Source: Oligoflexia bacterium
GTDB taxonomy: Bacteria > Bdellovibrionota > UBA1018 > CAIPTA01
NCBI GenBank assembly: GCA_903867855.1
Contig: CAIPTA010000179.1
Coordinates: 3,108-67,107 of the forward strand
Direction: 5' to 3'
Length of the DNA stretch: 64,000 nt
Positions 55,209 through 62,252 of this stretch are shown in pieces (positions within the stretch are counted from its first letter, which is position 1; each line of letters starts with the position of its first letter). The notes below the pieces were generated by a model. The model worked only from the letters and a program-made list of their open reading frames with translations. It was not told the DNA's origin and ran no database searches. A program made the position numbers and the translations under genes.

Positions 55209-56687
55209 TGGATCTGATCTAAAAAAGAGAGCTTGATATAGATGCTCATCTTGCACTTCTCCTTGAGCCATTAAATCAGAGAAGGTGATGGCCACTCTCG
55301 CTAACGCCACACTGGATCGTCGCGAGTAACCTCTGCTTTGGCAACTATCAGCCCAGAGCGCTTTCGCCGACGCCGACCAAGCCTTTACTTGAAACACTTC
55401 TTCCCCCTGAAGCCGCGAATTTGCCTTACCCTGCCTTGCGATCATAGACGCACGCGCTGTGGTGGCGAGTTCACGAAACTCAGCGGTGCTTGCCTTGCAA
55501 GTTTCCAGCTCTCCGCCTTGATGAAGTGGATAGTAAAGATCAATACGATCGAGAAGCGCTGAAGAAATGCGCCGACGATAATGACGAATCTCTGCCCGAC
55601 TACACTGGCATGCATGACGAGAATCTCCAAGCAAACCACAGGGGCATAGATTCGCCGACGCAAGTAATGTGGTTCTGCAGGGCAATCGATAGTGATAATC
55701 GCCTCGGCGCAATCGCAACTCTCCCTCTTCAATAGGAGTTCGCAGACTCTCTAAGACGCTGCGATCCATCTCTAAAACCTCATCAAGATATAAAACTCCC
55801 CCATGGGAAAGACTCAATTCACCAAATTTATTTTTTCCAAGACCACCCAAAAGATTTCCGCGGCTAATGCTGGCATGGGGCGCTCGGAAGGGACGCTCCC
55901 CCTCCCATGTTTCACCACTCATGGCATAGACTGCGCTGATTTCTTGTCCCTCCTCGACTGTGATGGGCGGTAAAATACTCGGCAAAGCGCTTGCCAAAAA
56001 ACTCTTGCCGACACCACGAGGACCAAAGAGTAGAGAGTGATGTCCACCAGCGGCCACTGCGAGCAACATCTGCTTCGCGCTTGCATGGCCCTCCACTTGT
56101 TCGATTTTAAGATAATTCGGGTTGAGGTTCTTCGATGGACGATGAACTTCTTCTCTCCTTTTCCCTCTGCCAATGCGCCGATTTAAAAAATCCACTGCCT
56201 CTTTCAAGCTTTGAAAGCCACCACCACCATCTAATTGAGCAGATTTCAGCACTTCGCTGTTCTCATAGGGCAAAAGTGCAGACGAAAAGAGCTGTTTTTG
56301 AAAAAAACTTGGCAGTGCAAGAGCCTCTACCACCGGCGAAAGACTCCCATCGAGGCGCAATCCACCTAAAACAGCGATCTTATGGAGGCGTTCAATCGAA
56401 AAAATGCCCTCTGAAGCCAATAATACCATCGCGGCAGCAAAATCGAGTGCCTGACTTCCTTCTCGCAAACATTCGGGCAGCACTTGAATCACTATTTTAC
56501 GTGCTGGAACTCGAAATCCCGAACTTTCGAGCGCAGAAAGCACTCTTTCGCGCATACTTTTTGCCTGTAATTGAGCAATTCCTAAAATCTGTAGTGACGG
56601 AAGATGCAAGCTCTGCCTGCATTCCAGCTCAACAGGCATCGCATTGAGACCAAATTGTTGTAACGATAAAATTTTTGCGTAACTCAT
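55203..56687 (-). CDS. yifB: YifB/ComM-family Mg-chelatase-like AAA+ ATPase
   Basis: 494 aa. Lon-like N-domain, Walker A LFGPRGVGKSFLA, C-terminal Mg-chelatase domain. Last recognisable bacterial gene. Confidence 0.85.
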   Translation of the reverse strand: MSYAKILSLQQFGLNAMPVELECRQSLHLPSLQILGIAQLQAKSMRERVLSALESSGFRVPARKIVIQVLPECLREGSQALDFAAAMVLLASEGIFSIERLHKIAVLGGLRLDGSLSPVVEALALPSFFQKQLFSSALLPYENSEVLKSAQLDGGGGFQSLKEAVDFLNRRIGRGKRREEVHRPSKNLNPNYLKIEQVEGHASAKQMLLAVAAGGHHSLLFGPRGVGKSFLASALPSILPPITVEEGQEISAVYAMSGETWEGERPFRAPHASISRGNLLGGLGKNKFGELSLSHGGVLYLDEVLEMDRSVLESLRTPIEEGELRLRRGDYHYRLPCRTTLLASANLCPCGLLGDSRHACQCSRAEIRHYRRRISSALLDRIDLYYPLHQGGELETCKASTAEFRELATTARASMIARQGKANSRLQGEEVFQVKAWSASAKALWADSCQSRGYSRRSSVALARVAITFSDLMAQGEVQDEHLYQALFFRSDPL

Positions 56688-57471
56688 AGATAAATTTTGT
56701 TCTGCAAAACTTTTTCCACGCGTTTTTTTTCAAATCGGCGATCAATATTGGATTTTTTTTCGCGAAGTATGATGGGTAGTGGTAGTAAATGACCTGGGTG
56801 ACACAGCTGTACATGCCGGCAAAGTCTTGCCTATAGACGATTTTGGCGCAGGGGGGTAGGTCAGAGTGCATGTAGTGCCTGTAGAATGCGTCCAATCCAG
56901 CCTGTACATGGCAATTTTCCACATTCTCTTCGACCCTTGCATCCTCTATGACGTTTGCTACAGAGGCCAGGTGGATGTGGCGATACAGAACACAGAACGA
57001 TGCTGTCATCCGCCTAATGAACGATAGCGAGAGACAACCGGGTTTGTCAGGGTCGAGGCAAGAAATGTCGTCCATCAGAGCCGTGTCGTTCACTTCAAGA
57101 TTGAAGGCGCCAAAGCGGGCCATAAGTGCATCCAGAGCCATGGCAACTGCATCCCAGTCCTCTGAGTATGTGTCCCAGTGGAACTGTAGATCTTCGAATG
57201 AGTCCTTGAGTTGTCGAAGTGTCAGTGACCGGATGGTGAGGCCTCCGTGGACAAATGTTGGCCAGAAAGAGTTGAGGCGTATGTCCATGGTGCTTGGGAA
57301 GAATTTGGCCCGGTATCTGGCGATCAAAAGACCTAGCAGGTGCATTTCATTCAGCATTACGTCGGCCGTGATTGGATCGTGCAGCCTTGTGTTCCAAATC
57401 CACTGATCCCATGCCTCTTTTGGGAGGTTGGCCTCTCCCCTTTCGAAATCCCTATTCCATCTATGCAGCAT
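56629..57471 (-). CDS. Hypothetical protein A of the foreign segment; C-terminus and stop unreliable
   Basis: ATG at 57471. The reading frame runs through the breakpoint and stops only inside the yifB 5' end, so the last ~20-45 codons are probably not native. No family recognised. Confidence 0.4.
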   Translation of the reverse strand: MLHRWNRDFERGEANLPKEAWDQWIWNTRLHDPITADVMLNEMHLLGLLIARYRAKFFPSTMDIRLNSFWPTFVHGGLTIRSLTLRQLKDSFEDLQFHWDTYSEDWDAVAMALDALMARFGAFNLEVNDTALMDDISCLDPDKPGCLSLSFIRRMTASFCVLYRHIHLASVANVIEDARVEENVENCHVQAGLDAFYRHYMHSDLPPCAKIVYRQDFAGMYSCVTQVIYYHYPSYFAKKNPILIADLKKNAWKKFCRTKFIYELRKNFIVTTIWSQCDAC

Positions 57472-57708: not shown

Positions 57709-57722
57709 TTGCCACGTGGCAA
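57709..57722. promoter_or_regulatory. 14-bp perfect palindrome TTGCCACGTGGCAA (E-box core CACGTG) in a divergent intergenic region
   Basis: Read directly. It lies between the T8A6 tract (57731-57744) and the ATG of ORF B. Confidence 0.4.
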
Positions 57723-58643: not shown

Positions 58644-59042
58644 TTATTGACGTCTTTTTTTACTGACAGTAAAGCATGCCTTGCAGAATCCATTCTGTTG
58701 CATGCAAATCCGCAAGGACAGCTGGATTTTGCAATGTTCACATTGTCGTACACAGTTGGAGCAGAAGAGAGATATCCTGCTGTTTGAATTTCGTTTCATC
58801 TTGAGCCCCTCCTCCTTGAGCTGTAGAAATTTTGATCTGGGCTTCCATATTCCACACAGAGAACAGTTGTCCACTGCCTCGTCATTTTCTACTTGCCATG
58901 AGTACCCGTTCCCCAAGGGAAATTTCTTCCAATAGGTGGGCCAGAGCGAAGGGGGTAGGGAGTCAATGGCTTCAGCGGGTACTGGGGGTGGCATTGCTAG
59001 CAAATAGGGAGAGAGCATATGTGTCTTGCCTGATGACGTCAT
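58644..59042 (-). CDS. Hypothetical zinc-finger-like protein E
   Basis: The ATG lies inside the GATGACGTCATC palindrome. Four CxxC pairs (CSLC, CSNC, CEHC, CKAC). The stop TAA is embedded in AATAAA. Confidence 0.4.
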   Translation of the reverse strand: MTSSGKTHMLSPYLLAMPPPVPAEAIDSLPPSLWPTYWKKFPLGNGYSWQVENDEAVDNCSLCGIWKPRSKFLQLKEEGLKMKRNSNSRISLFCSNCVRQCEHCKIQLSLRICMQQNGFCKACFTVSKKRRQ

Positions 59043-59265
59043 CCTTAATCCTAGTGTTTTCCATGGCTGTAACGCTGCCTGGCATTAATACTATTTTCCG
59101 GCAATTCTTTAGGTTTAGGACCTCAACGCGCCCTTTGCTGTCGAAGTTTGGGTTCACAATCACACAACGTGGTCCTAACTTATCGGTGCTCCATTTGTGC
59201 ATCCCATTTAACCCTCTCAACACTTTTGGCTTGATTGCGACAACTTGGTTTGGTTGCAGCTGCAT
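58972..59265 (-). CDS. Hypothetical protein G (97 aa)
   Basis: First ATG at 59265, with TATATATA 36 nt upstream. Its 3' end overlaps ORF E by 71 nt in another frame. Confidence 0.35.
   Translation of the reverse strand: MQLQPNQVVAIKPKVLRGLNGMHKWSTDKLGPRCVIVNPNFDSKGRVEVLNLKNCRKIVLMPGSVTAMENTRIKDDVIRQDTYALSLFASNATPSTR
59032..59043. promoter_or_regulatory. 12-bp palindrome GATGACGTCATC (CRE/ATF-like TGACGTCA core), copy 1
   Basis: Read directly. It contains the ATG of ORF E and is preceded on that strand by TTAAG. Confidence 0.5.
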
Positions 59266-59341
59266 GGTGTGGGTGATACCCAATCAGGTCTTCCAACTGA
59301 CTATATATAGCCGAACGGAAAAAAAAAGTCATTTTTTTTAA

Positions 59342-59353
59342 GATGACGTCATC
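59342..59353. promoter_or_regulatory. 12-bp palindrome GATGACGTCATC, copy 2
   Basis: Read directly. It lies in the divergent G/F intergenic region next to the A9 and T8 runs and is preceded by TTAAG. Confidence 0.5.
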
Positions 59354-59374
59354 AGAATTTCAACCCTTCGCCTG

Positions 59375-59926
59375 ATGGTGCCCACATGTGCACTGTTTTT
59401 CGTTCAAATGGCACATCCTCTTGTGCTTAGAAGGACATATTACATTCCAAAGGTCTCTTTCGAGCAAGGGCTTAAGCGCATACATACACCAGAAACCATG
59501 CTTTCAAGGCTCCCTGGATATCGCGTGGGCAGGATATATGAACCGCAGCTTGTGAAGAACTCTACCTATTTGACATTCGATCTGGAGCCCATGTCACACC
59601 TCCTGCCTAAGGGCAAAAGGACAGTAACAACATTCTCAGAAAATCGCACAAAAGTTTCTATGATCTACATGAGGAACGATAGGGTAACACTTATGGCTAC
59701 TGTGCGTGTATGTCCTGCCAAGTTTGGACACATTTTGCAGGTCAATTGTACTTTATTCAGCAATAGCCGTTGGTTTTACTCAGGATTGATGGACTTATTC
59801 CCGTATCTTCCCAAATTTCCGGTCAAGATGTCCTTGGCCTGCAAGAAGAAATTTCGCAACTACAGGCTGTTGGCTATGAAGAAAAGCATCGCCTCACAGG
59901 AATCTGATGATGTGTCTTTTGAATAA
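59375..59926 (+). CDS. Hypothetical protein F (183 aa)
   Basis: Clean ATG ORF. The stop TAA is embedded in AATAAA (59922-59927). Confidence 0.45.
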   Translation: MVPTCALFFVQMAHPLVLRRTYYIPKVSFEQGLKRIHTPETMLSRLPGYRVGRIYEPQLVKNSTYLTFDLEPMSHLLPKGKRTVTTFSENRTKVSMIYMRNDRVTLMATVRVCPAKFGHILQVNCTLFSNSRWFYSGLMDLFPYLPKFPVKMSLACKKKFRNYRLLAMKKSIASQESDDVSFE

Positions 59927-60069
59927 AATTCCAATATGTTTTGGCCAAATCCTTTGCAATTCTTGCCTCGTGTTGTGCATCGCGGGTCATCTTCCATTGA
60001 TACCATGACAGGATCAAGAGCAGTATGCATACCATTGGCCAGATCATATCAGATCAGGACCTTGTGATT

Positions 60070-60333
60070 TTATAACTGCTTTCTCCTCCTCAGCTTGTTG
60101 GCCAGGATTAGGAATTTCTCTGCAACTAGTTGTTGTGCCACCTCGTTCCTTTCCCGCAGCTCCCTTATTGAAGTAGACCAGAGTAGGCAGAATAGTAACG
60201 ACGCAGTCACTATGGGCGGGCTGGACAGGTAAAGGGGACGGAACAATAGTGTTAGAACACTTGTCTGAAGCAGCACCCATAGGAACAGCCAATATTGCTC
60301 GTTTCGCTTTTCGTTCATGGTGCGTGACGTCAT
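60070..60333 (-). CDS. Hypothetical small two-TM protein (87 aa)
   Basis: The ATG lies within TGACGTCA and overlaps the stop of the 610-aa ORF (TGATG). It has two hydrophobic helices. Confidence 0.35.
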   Translation of the reverse strand: MTSRTMNEKRNEQYWLFLWVLLQTSVLTLLFRPLYLSSPPIVTASLLFCLLWSTSIRELRERNEVAQQLVAEKFLILANKLRRRKQL

Positions 60334-60336
60334 CAG
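60325..60336. promoter_or_regulatory. TGACGTCATCAG, copy 3 of the CRE-like element
   Basis: Read directly. It contains the ATG of the 87-aa ORF and the stop of the 610-aa ORF. Confidence 0.45.
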
Positions 60337-62165
60337 TACAGCGCTTCCTGTTGTAGTTGCCGCATGGCCCGATCAGTGTCTGCTGGCAGGAGTGTGGGAT
60401 CGACCGGTTTTTCCGGAGGGGGTTTATGGTCTGCCGTGGCGCCTCCATGTGGTCCCAATATGGTGCCACCCCTGGCTATGTTATTAGGCCACCCCCAGGA
60501 GGTTTGATTGTCGTTGGGATATGGATTAGGGCCAGCACTACCTCCATCCCCTTCTAAATAAAATTGTCCAGCCATTTGATTTGGGAGAGTTGGTCGTGTT
60601 GTTGCAACTGGAGCTAGTCCTACTCTTGCAAGCCCTACTCCTCCGCCTGCCGCCGCTCCTACTCCCACCGCTGCTGCTGGTCCCCCTACTCCCGCCGCTG
60701 CCGCTGGTCCTCCTACTCCCACCGCTGCTGCTGGTCCTCCTACTCCCACCGCTGCTGCTGGTCCTCCTACTCCCACCGCTGCTGCTGGTGCCGCTGGTGC
60801 TGGAGGAGACACTGGCCTTACGATTCCCGCTCCTGGGGCTGGTCCGGCTGCAGGAATAATGCCGTCTGCAAACCGTACTCCTCTTCCTCTACCTGCATCT
60901 AACCCCACTCTAGCAGCTCCACCGGCTCCACCAGCACCGTCACCTCTTCCACCAACCGCAGCCCTTGCACCATCTCTAGCGTCACCTCCACCCCTTCCTG
61001 CTCCACCAGCCGCAGCCCTTGCACCATCTCCACCACCACCCCCTCCAGCTCCACCACCACCCCCTCCAGCTCCACCACCACCCCCTCCAGCACCACCACC
61101 ACCCCTCCCTCTTCCTCCTGCTGCCATCATTGGTGAGGGTCCTGCTCTGATACCCATCTGCGCTGCCAATATATCATACAACGTGTTTATTTGCGCCTCG
61201 TTCCTTCTCTGGTAGCTTGTAATGAGTTCCATCACAGGATTCAGATCAAAGGATGGTGGTGCTAAATCTCCAAGATTATCAATCTTTGCATTGATAGCGG
61301 CCAATTCTCGCTGAAATGGAGTGAGGTCCACGGTAGGCATGGCCGCTCCCGCTCCTCCTCCTGCAGATACCGTGATGGAAGACCCTCCTCTGATAGTTGG
61401 TTCTGCCTCTGGCACATCTACTTGTGGTACCACAAATCGCAGTCCGGATAGCCTGGTCACATAATCTGTGGCATCCACTTGATTTAGGGTCTTTACTAGA
61501 GTTGATCGAGCCTCGTGTAACGTTTTCACCAGGGCTGATACATCCACATCTCTGTATGCGTGCTGTATGTCTTTGTTGTATCTTGTTGCATTGAGGCCGT
61601 TGGCATTGCCGTTGCAGCACAGTAGCTGAGTTCCAACTGCTATGGCGAAAGGTGCGTAGAATTCTTCGCTTCGTCTGAGCCGTATGCAGGTCTCTCGCAG
61701 ACCCCAGGAAGATATGGGCAGGAACTCCTTACCTTGCAAGTACTGCACTACCCTGGTCTCTGCCGCCTCGACCTTTGGGTGAAATCCGTGGACGACAAAG
61801 TGACGCATCTGTAGCTTGAGGGATCTAACTATGTCGAACATGGTTTTGCCTAGGCCGTTTGTGCTTCCAGCTTGGGTGAATCGTTTGCCCACATAGTCGC
61901 TCCAGGCCTTGCTCTCGAATCTCTGCAGATCCTTGTCTGTCATCATCGTTTGTGAACTGTTTCGTACCACCCACACTGCCTCGACGTTGCTTACAGAGGC
62001 TCCGCACATCAAGTCCCTGTAACGGATGTCCAGCTGCTCCAGCTCATCGTACTTTTCCATCTCTTTCGCCAGCGAGGTTTGCAGCTCGTGAGATGGCATG
62101 GCTCTGATGTCCACCACTACACCTGTGTCTACCTGGTCGTAGAATCTGCCTCCAATTTGGCTCAT
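60333..62165 (-). CDS. Hypothetical 610-aa protein: ~330-aa globular N-domain plus ~230-aa Gly/Ala/Arg/Pro low-complexity region plus short C-terminal tail
   Basis: First ATG at 62165 (the track's TTG at 62204 is discounted). Longest ORF of the segment. Its repeats are GGGGGGA, DGARAA and GPAAAVGVG. No family recognised. Confidence 0.6.
   Translation of the reverse strand: MSQIGGRFYDQVDTGVVVDIRAMPSHELQTSLAKEMEKYDELEQLDIRYRDLMCGASVSNVEAVWVVRNSSQTMMTDKDLQRFESKAWSDYVGKRFTQAGSTNGLGKTMFDIVRSLKLQMRHFVVHGFHPKVEAAETRVVQYLQGKEFLPISSWGLRETCIRLRRSEEFYAPFAIAVGTQLLCCNGNANGLNATRYNKDIQHAYRDVDVSALVKTLHEARSTLVKTLNQVDATDYVTRLSGLRFVVPQVDVPEAEPTIRGGSSITVSAGGGAGAAMPTVDLTPFQRELAAINAKIDNLGDLAPPSFDLNPVMELITSYQRRNEAQINTLYDILAAQMGIRAGPSPMMAAGGRGRGGGGAGGGGGGAGGGGGGAGGGGGGDGARAAAGGAGRGGGDARDGARAAVGGRGDGAGGAGGAARVGLDAGRGRGVRFADGIIPAAGPAPGAGIVRPVSPPAPAAPAAAVGVGGPAAAVGVGGPAAAVGVGGPAAAAGVGGPAAAVGVGAAAGGGVGLARVGLAPVATTRPTLPNQMAGQFYLEGDGGSAGPNPYPNDNQTSWGWPNNIARGGTILGPHGGATADHKPPPEKPVDPTLLPADTDRAMRQLQQEALY
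60631..60792. repeat. Tandem 27-bp repeat, 5 well-conserved copies plus 1 degenerate copy
   Basis: Unit CCTACTCCCACCGCTGCTGCTGGTCCT at 60658, 60685, 60712, 60739 and 60766. It encodes GPAAAVGVG on the minus strand. Confidence 0.9.
61030..61109. repeat. Tandem 21-bp repeat, ~3.8 copies
   Basis: Unit CCACCACCACCCCCTCCAGCT at 61030, 61051 and 61072. It encodes the GGGGGGA repeats on the minus strand. Confidence 0.9.
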
Positions 62166-62242: not shown

Positions 62243-62252
62243 GATGACGTAC
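62243..62252. promoter_or_regulatory. GATGACGTAC, near-copy of the CRE-like element
   Basis: Read directly. It lies in the divergent region between the 610-aa ORF and ORF J. Confidence 0.35.

What the first reader, a model, noticed from the sequence alone, without database searches (positions are those of the whole stretch)
59032..60336. Recurrent GATGACGTCATC / TGACGTCATCAG palindrome placed exactly on gene starts
Copies of the element:
- Two perfect 12-bp palindromes GATGACGTCATC at 59032-59043 and 59342-59353.
- A third copy, TGACGTCATCAG, at 60325-60336. All three share TGACGTCATCAG in one orientation.
- A near-copy GATGACGTAC at 62243-62252.
- TTGACGTC at 58647-58654.

Relationship to ORFs:
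- In three cases the embedded ATG is the start of an ORF that begins M-T-S: MTSSGK... (ORF E), MTSRTM... (the 87-aa ORF) and a 10-codon MTSSEFQPFA upstream of ORF F.
- Copies 1 and 2 are both preceded by TTAAG.

I counted no copies in the 56.7 kb bacterial part while reading, but I did not search it exhaustively. The core is the canonical CRE/ATF (bZIP) site known from many eukaryotic and viral promoters. It could equally be the operator of an element-encoded regulator.
Basis: partly seen in the sequence, partly recalled or inferred. Interest (0 to 1): 0.6.

Follow-up and report, generated by a model that had tools for sequence, protein, structure and literature searches.

The report
CRE-like promoter palindrome of uncultured virus
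The repeated TGACGTCATC palindrome is real and is most likely a gene-start control signal of an unclassified lake-water virus of a eukaryote, whose DNA was joined to a bacterial contig by mis-assembly.

Summary
TGACGTCATCAG occurs three times in the window (expected 0.17). TGACGTCA occurs only 7 times in the 3.36-Mb assembly, and 3 of those lie in these 1.3 kb.

Everything right of 56766|56767 is identical to free-standing metagenomic contigs (46 kb and 80.6 kb). Those contigs continue leftward with other virus-like sequence, so the bacterium-"element" junction is an assembly chimera.

The foreign DNA belongs to an unclassified freshwater clade of gene-dense, almost all-ORFan, TATA-box-type elements, probably large DNA viruses of a protist.

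- In about 40 kb of this virus, TGACGTCA occurs 6 times (expected 0.6), always 11-72 nt upstream of an ORF start.
- Across 289 kb of relatives, 9 of 10 copies lie next to a start.
- The motif, or its variant TGACGTGG, is kept in front of orthologous genes in viruses sharing only about 30-50% protein identity.
- It mostly replaces the TATA box, and it often sits between divergent genes.

Best reading: a TATA-less, often bidirectional promoter element bound by a dimeric ACGT-core factor, bZIP-like, from host or virus. The "M-T-S" starts are a by-product of the ATG inside ATGACGTCA. The closest described parallel is the medusavirus immediate-early palindrome. The binding factor, the transcription start sites and the timing of expression remain untested.

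The parts
59030..59043 (-). Copy 1. Reads CTGATGACGTCATC on the + strand and faces ORF E on the - strand. The core TGACGTCA is at 59034-59041. The embedded ATG (59042-59040) opens the ORF, but the conserved Met (MPPP) is at 58994, 47 nt from the motif start.
   Evidence: E-family orthologues in three other viruses all carry TGACGTCA or GCCACGTCACC upstream.
59342..59355 (+). Copy 2. Reads GATGACGTCATCAG. Its core starts 31 nt before the ATG of ORF F (59375) and is preceded by A9/T8 runs. It opens a 10-codon upstream ORF whose TGA stop overlaps the ORF F ATG.
   Evidence: The L001 orthologue of F has TATATAAA at the equivalent place.
60325..60336 (-). Copy 3. Reads TGACGTCATCAG on the + strand and CTGATGACGTCA on the - strand. 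It spans the stop codon of the 623-aa gene and the first ATG (60333) of the 87-aa membrane-protein ORF. The next in-frame ATG is at 60318.
   Evidence: The positional counterpart in L001 has three tandem repeats of about 54 bp, each carrying TGACGTGG, with the last 3 nt before the ATG.
58644..59042 (-). ORF E, a small protein with four CxxC pairs (zinc-binding type). The motif upstream of this gene is the most conserved: 4 of 4 viruses have it.
   Evidence: The AF2 model is of only moderate confidence and has no significant fold match.
59375..59926 (+). ORF F, 183 aa, function unknown, transcribed divergently from ORF E.
60070..60333 (-). 87-aa ORF, a small membrane protein with a basic C-terminal tail.
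57710..57721 (.). TGCCACGTGGCA, a G-box-type palindrome between the divergent ORFs B84 (3 nt before its ATG) and C (32 nt before its ATG). It may be a relative of the motif. It is not conserved in L001, and G-boxes are not enriched across the clade.
62243..62252 (+). Near-copy GATGACGTAC, ending 2 nt before the ATG of the 113-aa ORF. It is absent upstream of that ORF's orthologues, so its status is uncertain.
56766..56767 (.). Chimeric join. Bacterial DNA (comM/yifB upstream region) lies to the left and virus-like DNA to the right.
   Evidence: - L007, L008 and L016 are identical to the window from 56767 rightward.
- To the left they continue with ...TTTGCATTTTTCTCTC.
- The same loose end is seen in runs X1, X2 and X3.
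- Depths are uncoupled: X3 has the virus at about 520x and the bacterium at 0.

Best explanation
The palindrome is a promoter-proximal cis element. Its core is TGACGTCA. In this virus it is extended to TGACGTCATC(A). It belongs to an uncultured, unclassified, probably large DNA virus of a freshwater eukaryote.

Most genes of this virus clade have a TATA-like box starting 28-33 nt before the ATG. A small set of genes has the palindrome instead, starting 11-37 nt (once 72 nt) before the first usable ATG. That set includes the zinc-binding protein E, a DEDD 3'-5' exonuclease, ORF F and the 87-aa membrane protein.

I infer the following steps:
- A dimeric factor that recognises ACGT-core dyads binds the site. 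The most likely candidate is a CREB/ATF-type bZIP of the host; a virus-encoded protein is the alternative.
- Binding drives transcription of the adjacent gene. Where the site lies between divergent genes 35-60 bp apart, it drives both.
- This defines a separate expression class, possibly early.

The ATG inside ATGACGTCA, and hence the M-T-S "starts" and the 10-codon upstream ORF, are incidental.

Shown: enrichment, position relative to ORF starts, near-exclusivity with TATA boxes, and conservation at orthologous genes. Inferred: binding factor, transcription start sites, and timing of expression.
For: Enrichment:
- Three copies in the window against 0.17 expected.
- 6 distinct TGACGTCA in about 40 kb of this virus against 0.6 expected under a first-order Markov model. 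This is despite CpG depletion (observed/expected 0.68) and under-representation of ACGT. TGACGTCA is the most frequent 8-mer palindrome in L007.

Position:
- In 289 kb of non-redundant clade sequence, 6 of 10 sites by automatic gene calls lie in the start-proximal zone. By inspection the figure is 9 of 10.
- That zone is 5.2% of the sequence; binomial p = 3.5e-6.
- Among all 256 8-mer palindromes, only TATA-like ones behave similarly.
- The half-site TGACGT lies in the zone 23 of 160 times, p = 1e-5.

Relation to TATA:
- 18 of 21 genes with a half-site lack a TATA-like box, against 155 of 276 genes overall.
- The orthologue of ORF F in L001 has TATATAAA where the window has the palindrome.

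Conservation at orthologous genes, with protein identity of only about 30-50%:
- E family, 4 of 4. Window, L013 and L051 have a perfect TGACGTCA. L051 has the same 47-nt spacing to the conserved Met as the window. L001 has GCCACGTCACC.
- Exonuclease family, 2 of 2.
- The gene downstream of the 623/632-aa gene, 2 of 2.
- A 220-aa family, in L014 and L023.

Bidirectional placement: L014 (-24 and -27), L023, L001 and L011.

Precedent: the medusavirus immediate-early promoter palindrome GCCATRTGAVKTCATRTGGYSRSG has a central 10 nt compatible with ATGACGTCAT (PMC8557863).
Against: - There are no transcript data. No RNA run holds the sequence, so transcription start sites and timing are unknown.
- The motif is rare, about 1 per 30 kb in relatives, so the counts are small.
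- One clade copy (L011:10955) sits at a stop codon between convergent genes. One (L003:4463) lies inside a gene.
- Four distant members of the 220-aa family lack the motif.
- No bZIP signature was found in the six-frame translations of the loci held at that point.
- The virus lineage, and therefore the polymerase that transcribes it, is unresolved.
- AATAAA lies near stop codons in only 6.7% of genes. That gives weak support for host Pol II-type mRNA processing.
- The motif lies unusually close to the ATG for a classical CRE.
Confidence: 0.6

Rival explanations
1. The palindrome is the operator of a virus-encoded dimeric regulator rather than a host bZIP site. The candidate is the small zinc-binding protein E, whose own gene carries the motif in every virus examined (autoregulation). 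The regulator switches a small regulon on or off.
For: - The motif changes between viruses: TGACGTCATC here, GTGACGTGGC in L001/L003. It changes at the same orthologous genes, as expected if site and factor co-evolve.
- The E family carries the motif in 4 of 4 viruses.
- E has four conserved CxxC pairs and a basic tail.
Against: - The model of E has only moderate confidence (pLDDT 71).
- Its fold matches are non-significant generic zinc-ribbon/RING-like hits, so there is no evidence that it binds DNA.
- TGACGTCA and TGACGTGG are both ordinary targets of cellular bZIP proteins (established knowledge).
- Only part of the genome was inspected.
Confidence: 0.2
2. The motif acts at the RNA or translation level. 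It would be a start-codon context, a small hairpin, or an upstream-ORF device that tunes translation of the downstream ORF. An example is the termination-reinitiation overlap TGATG at ORF F.
For: - The motif overlaps or closely precedes ATGs.
- The upstream ORF's stop overlaps the ORF F start.
- The stop/start overlap CTGATGACG occurs at the 623-aa/87-aa gene boundary.
Against: - The motif is used in both orientations relative to the gene.
- It serves divergent gene pairs from a single copy.
- Its distance to the ATG varies from 3 to 64 nt.
- In most relatives it contains no ATG.
- A 12-nt perfect palindrome gives at best a 4-bp stem. This last point is inference.
Confidence: 0.07
3. The cluster of three copies, together with the A9/T8 runs and TATATATA in 59043-59374, marks a replication origin, a recombination or packaging site, or a restriction-modification target (GACGTC is the AatII site). 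On this reading it is not a promoter.
For: - Two inverted copies 310 bp apart flank an A/T-rich divergent region.
- ATF/CRE-type sites are known near some viral origins (my own knowledge).
Against: - Relatives have single copies at orthologous gene starts, with no clustering.
- The other three copies in this virus are dispersed, each next to a gene start.
- GACGTC alone shows no positional bias (7 of 96, p = 0.24).
Confidence: 0.05
4. It is chance. A few copies of an 8-12-mer happen to contain ATG and therefore open ORFs.
For: - The absolute numbers are small.
- The ATG inside the motif does inflate the "exactly at starts" impression.
Against: - The shuffle and Markov expectations are far below the observed counts.
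- The positional test gives p = 3.5e-6.
- The motif is conserved upstream of orthologues in four viruses whose intergenic DNA is otherwise unalignable.
Confidence: 0.03

Closest known systems
Medusavirus palindromic immediate-early promoter motif (GCCATRTGAVKTCATRTGGYSRSG; Zhang et al. 2021, PMC8557863)
   Same: - A palindromic motif upstream of a minority of genes of a large DNA virus of a protist.
- Its central 10 nt (RTGAVKTCAT) accommodates ATGACGTCAT.
- It prefers divergent and upstream intergenic regions.
- It accompanies A/T-rich promoter motifs.
- The associated genes are mostly of unknown function.
   Different: - The 24-nt flanks (GCCAT...ATGGC) are not present here.
- The medusavirus motif lies 40-70 bp before the ATG; here it is mostly 11-37 nt.
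- Immediate-early timing was shown by RNA-seq for medusavirus and is untested here.
- No detectable protein relationship to medusavirus was found. The conserved 318-aa clade protein has no match in BFVD.
Cellular cAMP-response element / ATF site (TGACGTCA) bound by CREB/ATF bZIP dimers, as also used by adenovirus early promoters, the HCMV major immediate-early enhancer and the HTLV-1 LTR (my own knowledge)
   Same: - An identical 8-bp core.
- Half-site variants (TGACGT) are also enriched.
- It works in either orientation.
- It is used by viruses to recruit host factors to early genes.
   Different: - Classical CREs act from tens to hundreds of bp upstream of a TATA or Inr core promoter. Here the site lies where the TATA box would be, and mostly in its absence.
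- Binding by a bZIP protein is not shown.
Plant-type ACGT-core elements: C-box TGACGTCA, G-box CCACGTGG, hybrid TGACGTGG, and the as-1/ocs tandem TGACG elements of caulimovirus and Agrobacterium promoters (my own knowledge)
   Same: - The clade uses C-box sites (this virus, L013, L014, L023, L051) and C/G hybrids (L001/L003).
- Tandem copies occur: L013 has TGACGTCATGACGTCA, and L001 has three repeats.
   Different: - G-boxes as such are not enriched near starts.
- The host is unknown.
Baculovirus/nudivirus late promoter (A/G/T)TAAG
   Same: TTAAG precedes copy 2, and TTAAGG precedes copy 1.
   Different: TTAAG is absent from all other copies, so it is not part of the element.

Membership tests
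CRE/ATF (bZIP) response element | 8-bp dyad TGACGTCA, with TGACGT/CGTCA half-site variants | tested here: met
   There are three perfect cores in the window and six in about 40 kb of the virus. The half-site is enriched near starts, 23 of 160, p = 1e-5.
CRE/ATF (bZIP) response element | Lies in the promoter, upstream of the transcription start of a Pol II gene | not testable with these tools
   It lies upstream of ORF starts. No RNA run holds the sequence, so transcription starts and the polymerase are unknown.
CRE/ATF (bZIP) response element | Bound by a CREB/ATF-family bZIP dimer | not testable with these tools
   No binding data exist. No bZIP basic-region signature was found in the six-frame translations of the loci held at that point. 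The host is unknown.
Medusavirus immediate-early palindromic promoter motif | 24-nt consensus GCCATRTGAVKTCATRTGGYSRSG | tested here: not met
   Only the central 10 nt fit. The flanks here are TTAAG/CTG...CAG.
Medusavirus immediate-early palindromic promoter motif | Located 40-70 bp upstream of start codons | tested here: not met
   The motif starts 11-37 nt before the first usable ATG in most cases, 47 nt before the conserved Met of E, and 72 nt in one case.
Medusavirus immediate-early palindromic promoter motif | Preference for upstream or divergent intergenic regions over convergent ones | tested here: met
   9 of 10 clade copies are upstream of a start. Several lie between divergent genes, and one lies at a convergent junction.
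Medusavirus immediate-early palindromic promoter motif | Association with immediate-early transcription | not testable with these tools
   There are no RNA data.
Baculovirus-type TAAG late promoter | (A/G/T)TAAG at the initiation site of the genes concerned | tested here: not met
   TTAAG lies next to copies 1 and 2 only and is absent at the other copies in this virus and its relatives.
Giant-virus hairpin 3'-end signal | Palindrome with a stem of at least about 10-13 bp, downstream of stop codons | tested here: not met
   The dyad is only 8-12 nt with no loop. Copies 1 and 2 lie between divergent gene starts.

The most novel reading that the evidence does not exclude
The palindrome is the TATA-substituting, bidirectional core promoter of an immediate-early regulon. 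The regulon would include the zinc protein E, a DEDD exonuclease and small membrane proteins. It would be shared by a whole, so far unclassified clade of large freshwater eukaryotic DNA viruses. That clade has no recognisable hallmark genes and is absent from IMG/VR. The virus would start infection by capturing a host CREB/ATF-type bZIP. The site co-evolves between C-box and C/G-hybrid forms across the clade, which is convergent with, or distantly homologous to, the medusavirus immediate-early palindrome.
Probability: 0.3. Interest if true: 0.65.

Novelty: new variant of a known kind. Interest (0 to 1): 0.45.

Why it matters
Promoter grammar is almost unknown for uncultured viruses of protists. 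Here a very short, easily recognised dyad marks a small, evolutionarily conserved gene set in an environmental virus clade whose genes are otherwise nearly all ORFans. Three things follow.

1. It gives a handle for defining an expression class, possibly early genes, without a culture.
2. It gives a clue to the host's transcription factors, and so to the host.
3. It is a second, independent case after medusavirus of a CRE-like palindrome used as a class-specific promoter in a large DNA virus.

The work also shows that this "bacterial" contig is chimeric. That matters for anyone using the genome bin.

Tried and rejected
- **Pfam on about 60 proteins of the window and related loci.** Almost nothing was found. 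The only hits were Snf7, Pkinase, TNFR/Ephrin_rec_like, PARG, a TnpB/Fanzor-like protein and a DEDD exonuclease. There was no capsid, polymerase or RNA-polymerase hallmark, so the lineage is unresolved.
- **IMG/VR scans with two single proteins and one alignment.** No relatives were found.
- **AF2 model of the conserved 318-aa clade protein.** The model is very confident (pLDDT 96) but has no significant match in BFVD or PDB. The top hits, all sub-threshold, are herpesvirus terminase subunit TRM1/UL28. A profile search of PDB sequences gave nothing.
- **AF2 model of protein E.** pLDDT is 71, and the only matches are non-significant zinc-ribbon/RING-like ones. This does not support DNA binding.
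- **Search for a virus-encoded bZIP by PROSITE-type patterns in six frames.** None was found.
- **RNA runs for mapping transcription starts.** None hold the sequence.
- **G-box (CACGTG) and generic ACGT as part of the same motif class.** Neither is enriched near starts. The window's TGCCACGTGGCA and GATGACGTAC are not conserved in L001 or L013.
- **TTAAG as part of the motif.** Rejected.
- **AATAAA as a general poly(A) signal.** It occurs near only 6.7% of stop codons.
- **Conservation of the three copies in a strain 2.7% divergent (runs X3/X4).** All three are intact, but this is not significant: about 1 change was expected.
- **The genome search on the loci.** The records are not held.
Full report
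**Observation.** The sequence is as described.
- GATGACGTCATC lies at 59032-59043 and 59342-59353.
- TGACGTCATCAG lies at 59030-41 (-), 59344-55 (+) and 60325-36 (+). That is 3 matches against 0.17 expected, and none of 100 dinucleotide shuffles reaches 3.
- The near-copies at 62243-52 and 58647-54 exist.
- The 8-mer TGACGTCA is absent from the 56.8-kb bacterial part. It occurs only 7 times in the whole 3.36-Mb, 202-contig assembly, and 3 of those are here.
- The ORFs starting MTSSGK and MTSRTM, and the 10-codon upstream ORF before ORF F, are real open frames.

**Context: the contig is a chimera.**
- The window is C179:3108-67107.
- From 56767 rightward it is base-for-base identical to independent ENA metagenome contigs: L007 from a 46-kb scaffold, L008, and L016/L053 from an 80.6-kb contig. 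The only differences are indels in the repeat array of the 623-aa gene.
- Left of 56766 those contigs do not continue with the bacterial comM/yifB region. They continue with other virus-like genes (...TTTGCATTTTTCTCTC|GTATGATGG).
- The same viral continuation appears as a loose end in three sequencing runs.
- Depths are uncoupled: X1 has bacterium 12-15x and virus 10.5x, X2 has about 2x and 23x, and X3 has 0 and about 520x.
- In X1 the viral-viral continuation has the full viral depth (11.8). At the same spot there is a second low-depth odd junction.
- I conclude that the bacterial-viral join is an assembly or library chimera, or at most a rare event. The "element" is a free-standing entity found in lake-water metagenomes.

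**What the foreign DNA is.**
- It is gene-dense, about one gene per kb, and nearly all ORFan in Pfam.
- It is collinear with more GC-rich relatives L001-L005, at 27-56% protein identity.
- One 318-aa protein (window ORF 56629-57471, truncated by the chimera) defines a large environmental family. It has 157 representative clusters at 50% identity and 177 or more clusters at 90%. These lie on contigs up to 103 kb, essentially all freshwater.
- Its AF2 model is excellent (pLDDT 96) but matches nothing significantly in BFVD or PDB. The top sub-threshold hits are herpesvirus terminase subunit TRM1.
- IMG/VR holds no member.
- Scattered domains point to a eukaryotic host: Snf7, Pkinase, TNFR/Ephrin-receptor-like repeats, PARG, a TnpB/Fanzor-like protein and a DEDD exonuclease.
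- I found no capsid, DNA-polymerase or RNA-polymerase gene in the parts seen. The lineage stays open, and so does the polymerase that transcribes it.
- Across 289 kb of non-redundant clade sequence, the dominant upstream signal is a TATA-like box. TATA[AT]A starts 28-33 nt before the ATG, and 6-mers such as ATATAA are enriched about 20-fold.

**The motif in this virus.**
About 40 kb of the same virus (L007, L015/L016, L053) holds six distinct TGACGTCA sites against 0.6 expected under a first-order Markov model. One search counted one site twice. With six sites, the Poisson P is about 4e-5 by my own arithmetic. This is despite CpG depletion (0.68) and ACGT under-representation (49 against 78 expected). 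TGACGTCA is the commonest 8-mer palindrome in L007.

| Site | Position relative to gene |
|---|---|
| Copy 1 | ORF E: the ATG is embedded in the motif; the next in-frame ATGs are 23 and 47 nt from the motif start |
| Copy 2 | 31 nt before the ORF F ATG |
| Copy 3 | 87-aa ORF: the ATG is embedded; the next ATG is 14 nt on |
| L007:20437 | 28 nt before the ATG of a DEDD exonuclease gene, after T-runs and three CTTGACTAGGTCA repeats |
| L053:17298 | 37 nt before the first ATG of a 131-aa ORF |
| L053:18872 | 72 nt before a 160-aa ORF that also has a TATAAG |

Five of the six sites share the extension TGACGTCATC. A hybrid GCCACGTCATCA lies 29 nt before another ATG.

**The motif in relatives.**
- In the 289-kb set TGACGTCA occurs 10 times.
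- With automatically chosen ORFs, 6 of 10 fall in the zone from -45 to +10 around starts. That zone is 5.2% of the sequence, giving binomial p = 3.5e-6.
- By inspection 9 of 10 are start-proximal.
- Of all 256 8-mer palindromes, only TATA-like ones share this behaviour.
- The half-site TGACGT is also enriched (23 of 160, p = 1e-5). Generic ACGT, GACGTC and the G-box are not.
- Genes with a half-site mostly lack a TATA-like box: 18 of 21 against 155 of 276 overall.

**Conservation at orthologous genes.** This is the strongest evidence.
- **Zinc-binding protein E.** It carries a perfect TGACGTCA upstream in the window virus, in L013 (tandem TGACGTCATGACGTCA) and in L051. In L051 the spacing to the conserved MPPP methionine is 47 nt, the same as in the window. 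The GC-rich relative L001 has GCCACGTCACC at the same place. The proteins share only about 30% identity.
- **Exonuclease.** The window virus has TGACGTCACC 20 nt before the ATG. L003 has GCCACGTCACCGC directly before the ATG, plus two more GCCACGTG repeats.
- **Small gene downstream of the 623/632-aa gene.** The window has the palindrome. L001 has three tandem repeats of about 54 bp, each with TGACGTGG.
- **A 220-aa family.** It has the motif in L014 and L023 but not in four more distant members.
- **ORF F.** Its orthologue in L001 has TATATAAA instead. This suggests the two elements are functionally interchangeable.
- **Divergent genes.** Single copies often lie midway between divergent genes 35-60 bp apart, for example L014 at -24 and -27. 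That fits a dyad-symmetric, bidirectional element.

**Interpretation.**
- The motif is a functional promoter-proximal element of a minority, TATA-less gene class.
- The ATG within ATGACGTCA explains the M-T-S "starts". The N-terminal 16 residues of E are not conserved, and most relatives' copies contain no ATG.
- The sequence is that of a CRE/ATF or plant-type C-box. The C-box to C/G-hybrid drift between viruses is within the known range of bZIP targets (established knowledge). Hence a host bZIP is my first choice for the factor.
- A virus-encoded dimeric regulator is the main rival. Protein E is an obvious but unsupported candidate.
- No bZIP signature was seen in the fragments at hand.
- There are no RNA data, so transcription start sites and temporal class are inference.

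**Comparison with known systems.**
- The closest described system is the medusavirus immediate-early promoter palindrome GCCATRTGAVKTCATRTGGYSRSG. Its central 10 nt accommodate ATGACGTCAT (PMC8557863).
- The flanks and the distance to the ATG (40-70 bp there) differ, and no protein relationship to medusavirus was detectable. This is a resemblance in how it works, not membership.
- The open literature library returned nothing linking TGACGTCA to giant viruses.
- TAAG-type late promoters, hairpin 3'-end signals and the AatII restriction site were considered and do not fit.

**Verdict.**
- It is a new variant of a known kind of viral promoter element, found in a virus clade that is itself uncharacterised.
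- Interest is moderate.

Noticed in passing
window 56766|56767 (contig C179): The 68-kb contig of this genome bin joins a bacterial chromosome fragment to about 8.2 kb of virus-like eukaryote-type DNA. Independent assemblies and three runs show the viral sequence continuing differently. In run X1 a second low-depth odd junction lies at 56778.
   Followed up: yes
window 56629-57471 (-); full length in L007:7141-8097 (-): The 318-aa protein defines a large freshwater environmental family, with 157 clusters at 50% identity. Its AF2 model is near-perfect (pLDDT 96), yet it has no significant structural or Pfam match and no member in IMG/VR. The top sub-threshold fold hits are herpesvirus terminase subunit TRM1/UL28. 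It marks an apparently unclassified clade of large virus-like elements, on contigs up to 103 kb.
   Followed up: partly
clade-wide; in the window e.g. 63022, 63153, 63545, 63756: A TATA-like box (TATA[AT]A) starts 28-33 nt before the ATG in about 45% of genes. This implies very short leaders.
   Followed up: partly
L007:20340-20420 (same virus, outside the window): Three direct repeats of CTTGACTAGGT(C/T)A, each preceded by a T7-T11 run. They lie in the divergent region between the 676-aa gene and the exonuclease gene, just upstream of a TGACGTCA copy.
   Followed up: no
L001:10200-10356: Three tandem repeats of about 54 bp, each carrying TGACGTGG. They lie between the 632-aa gene and the downstream small membrane-protein gene of the GC-rich relative.
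   Followed up: partly
window 60600-61110: The Gly/Ala/Pro repeat arrays of the 623-aa gene differ in length between assemblies and strains, and several contigs break there (P0001 is 487 aa, P0002 is 603 aa; indels appear in run X3).
   Followed up: no
L014:11192-12178 (+): A 328-aa protein, divergently transcribed from a shared TGACGTCA site, has a sub-threshold Pfam hit to Herpes_UL92, a late-transcription factor of beta- and gamma-herpesviruses (E = 0.0016, 18.7 bits against a cut-off of 21).
   Followed up: no
L038:3285-5015 (+): A TnpB/Fanzor-like protein (Cas12f1-like TNB domain plus HTH_OrfB_IS605) is encoded in a clade member.
   Followed up: no
window 59343-59377: A 10-codon upstream ORF opens inside copy 2, and its TGA stop overlaps the ATG of ORF F (TGATG). 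The same TGATG stop/start overlap joins the 623-aa and 87-aa ORFs at copy 3.
   Followed up: partly
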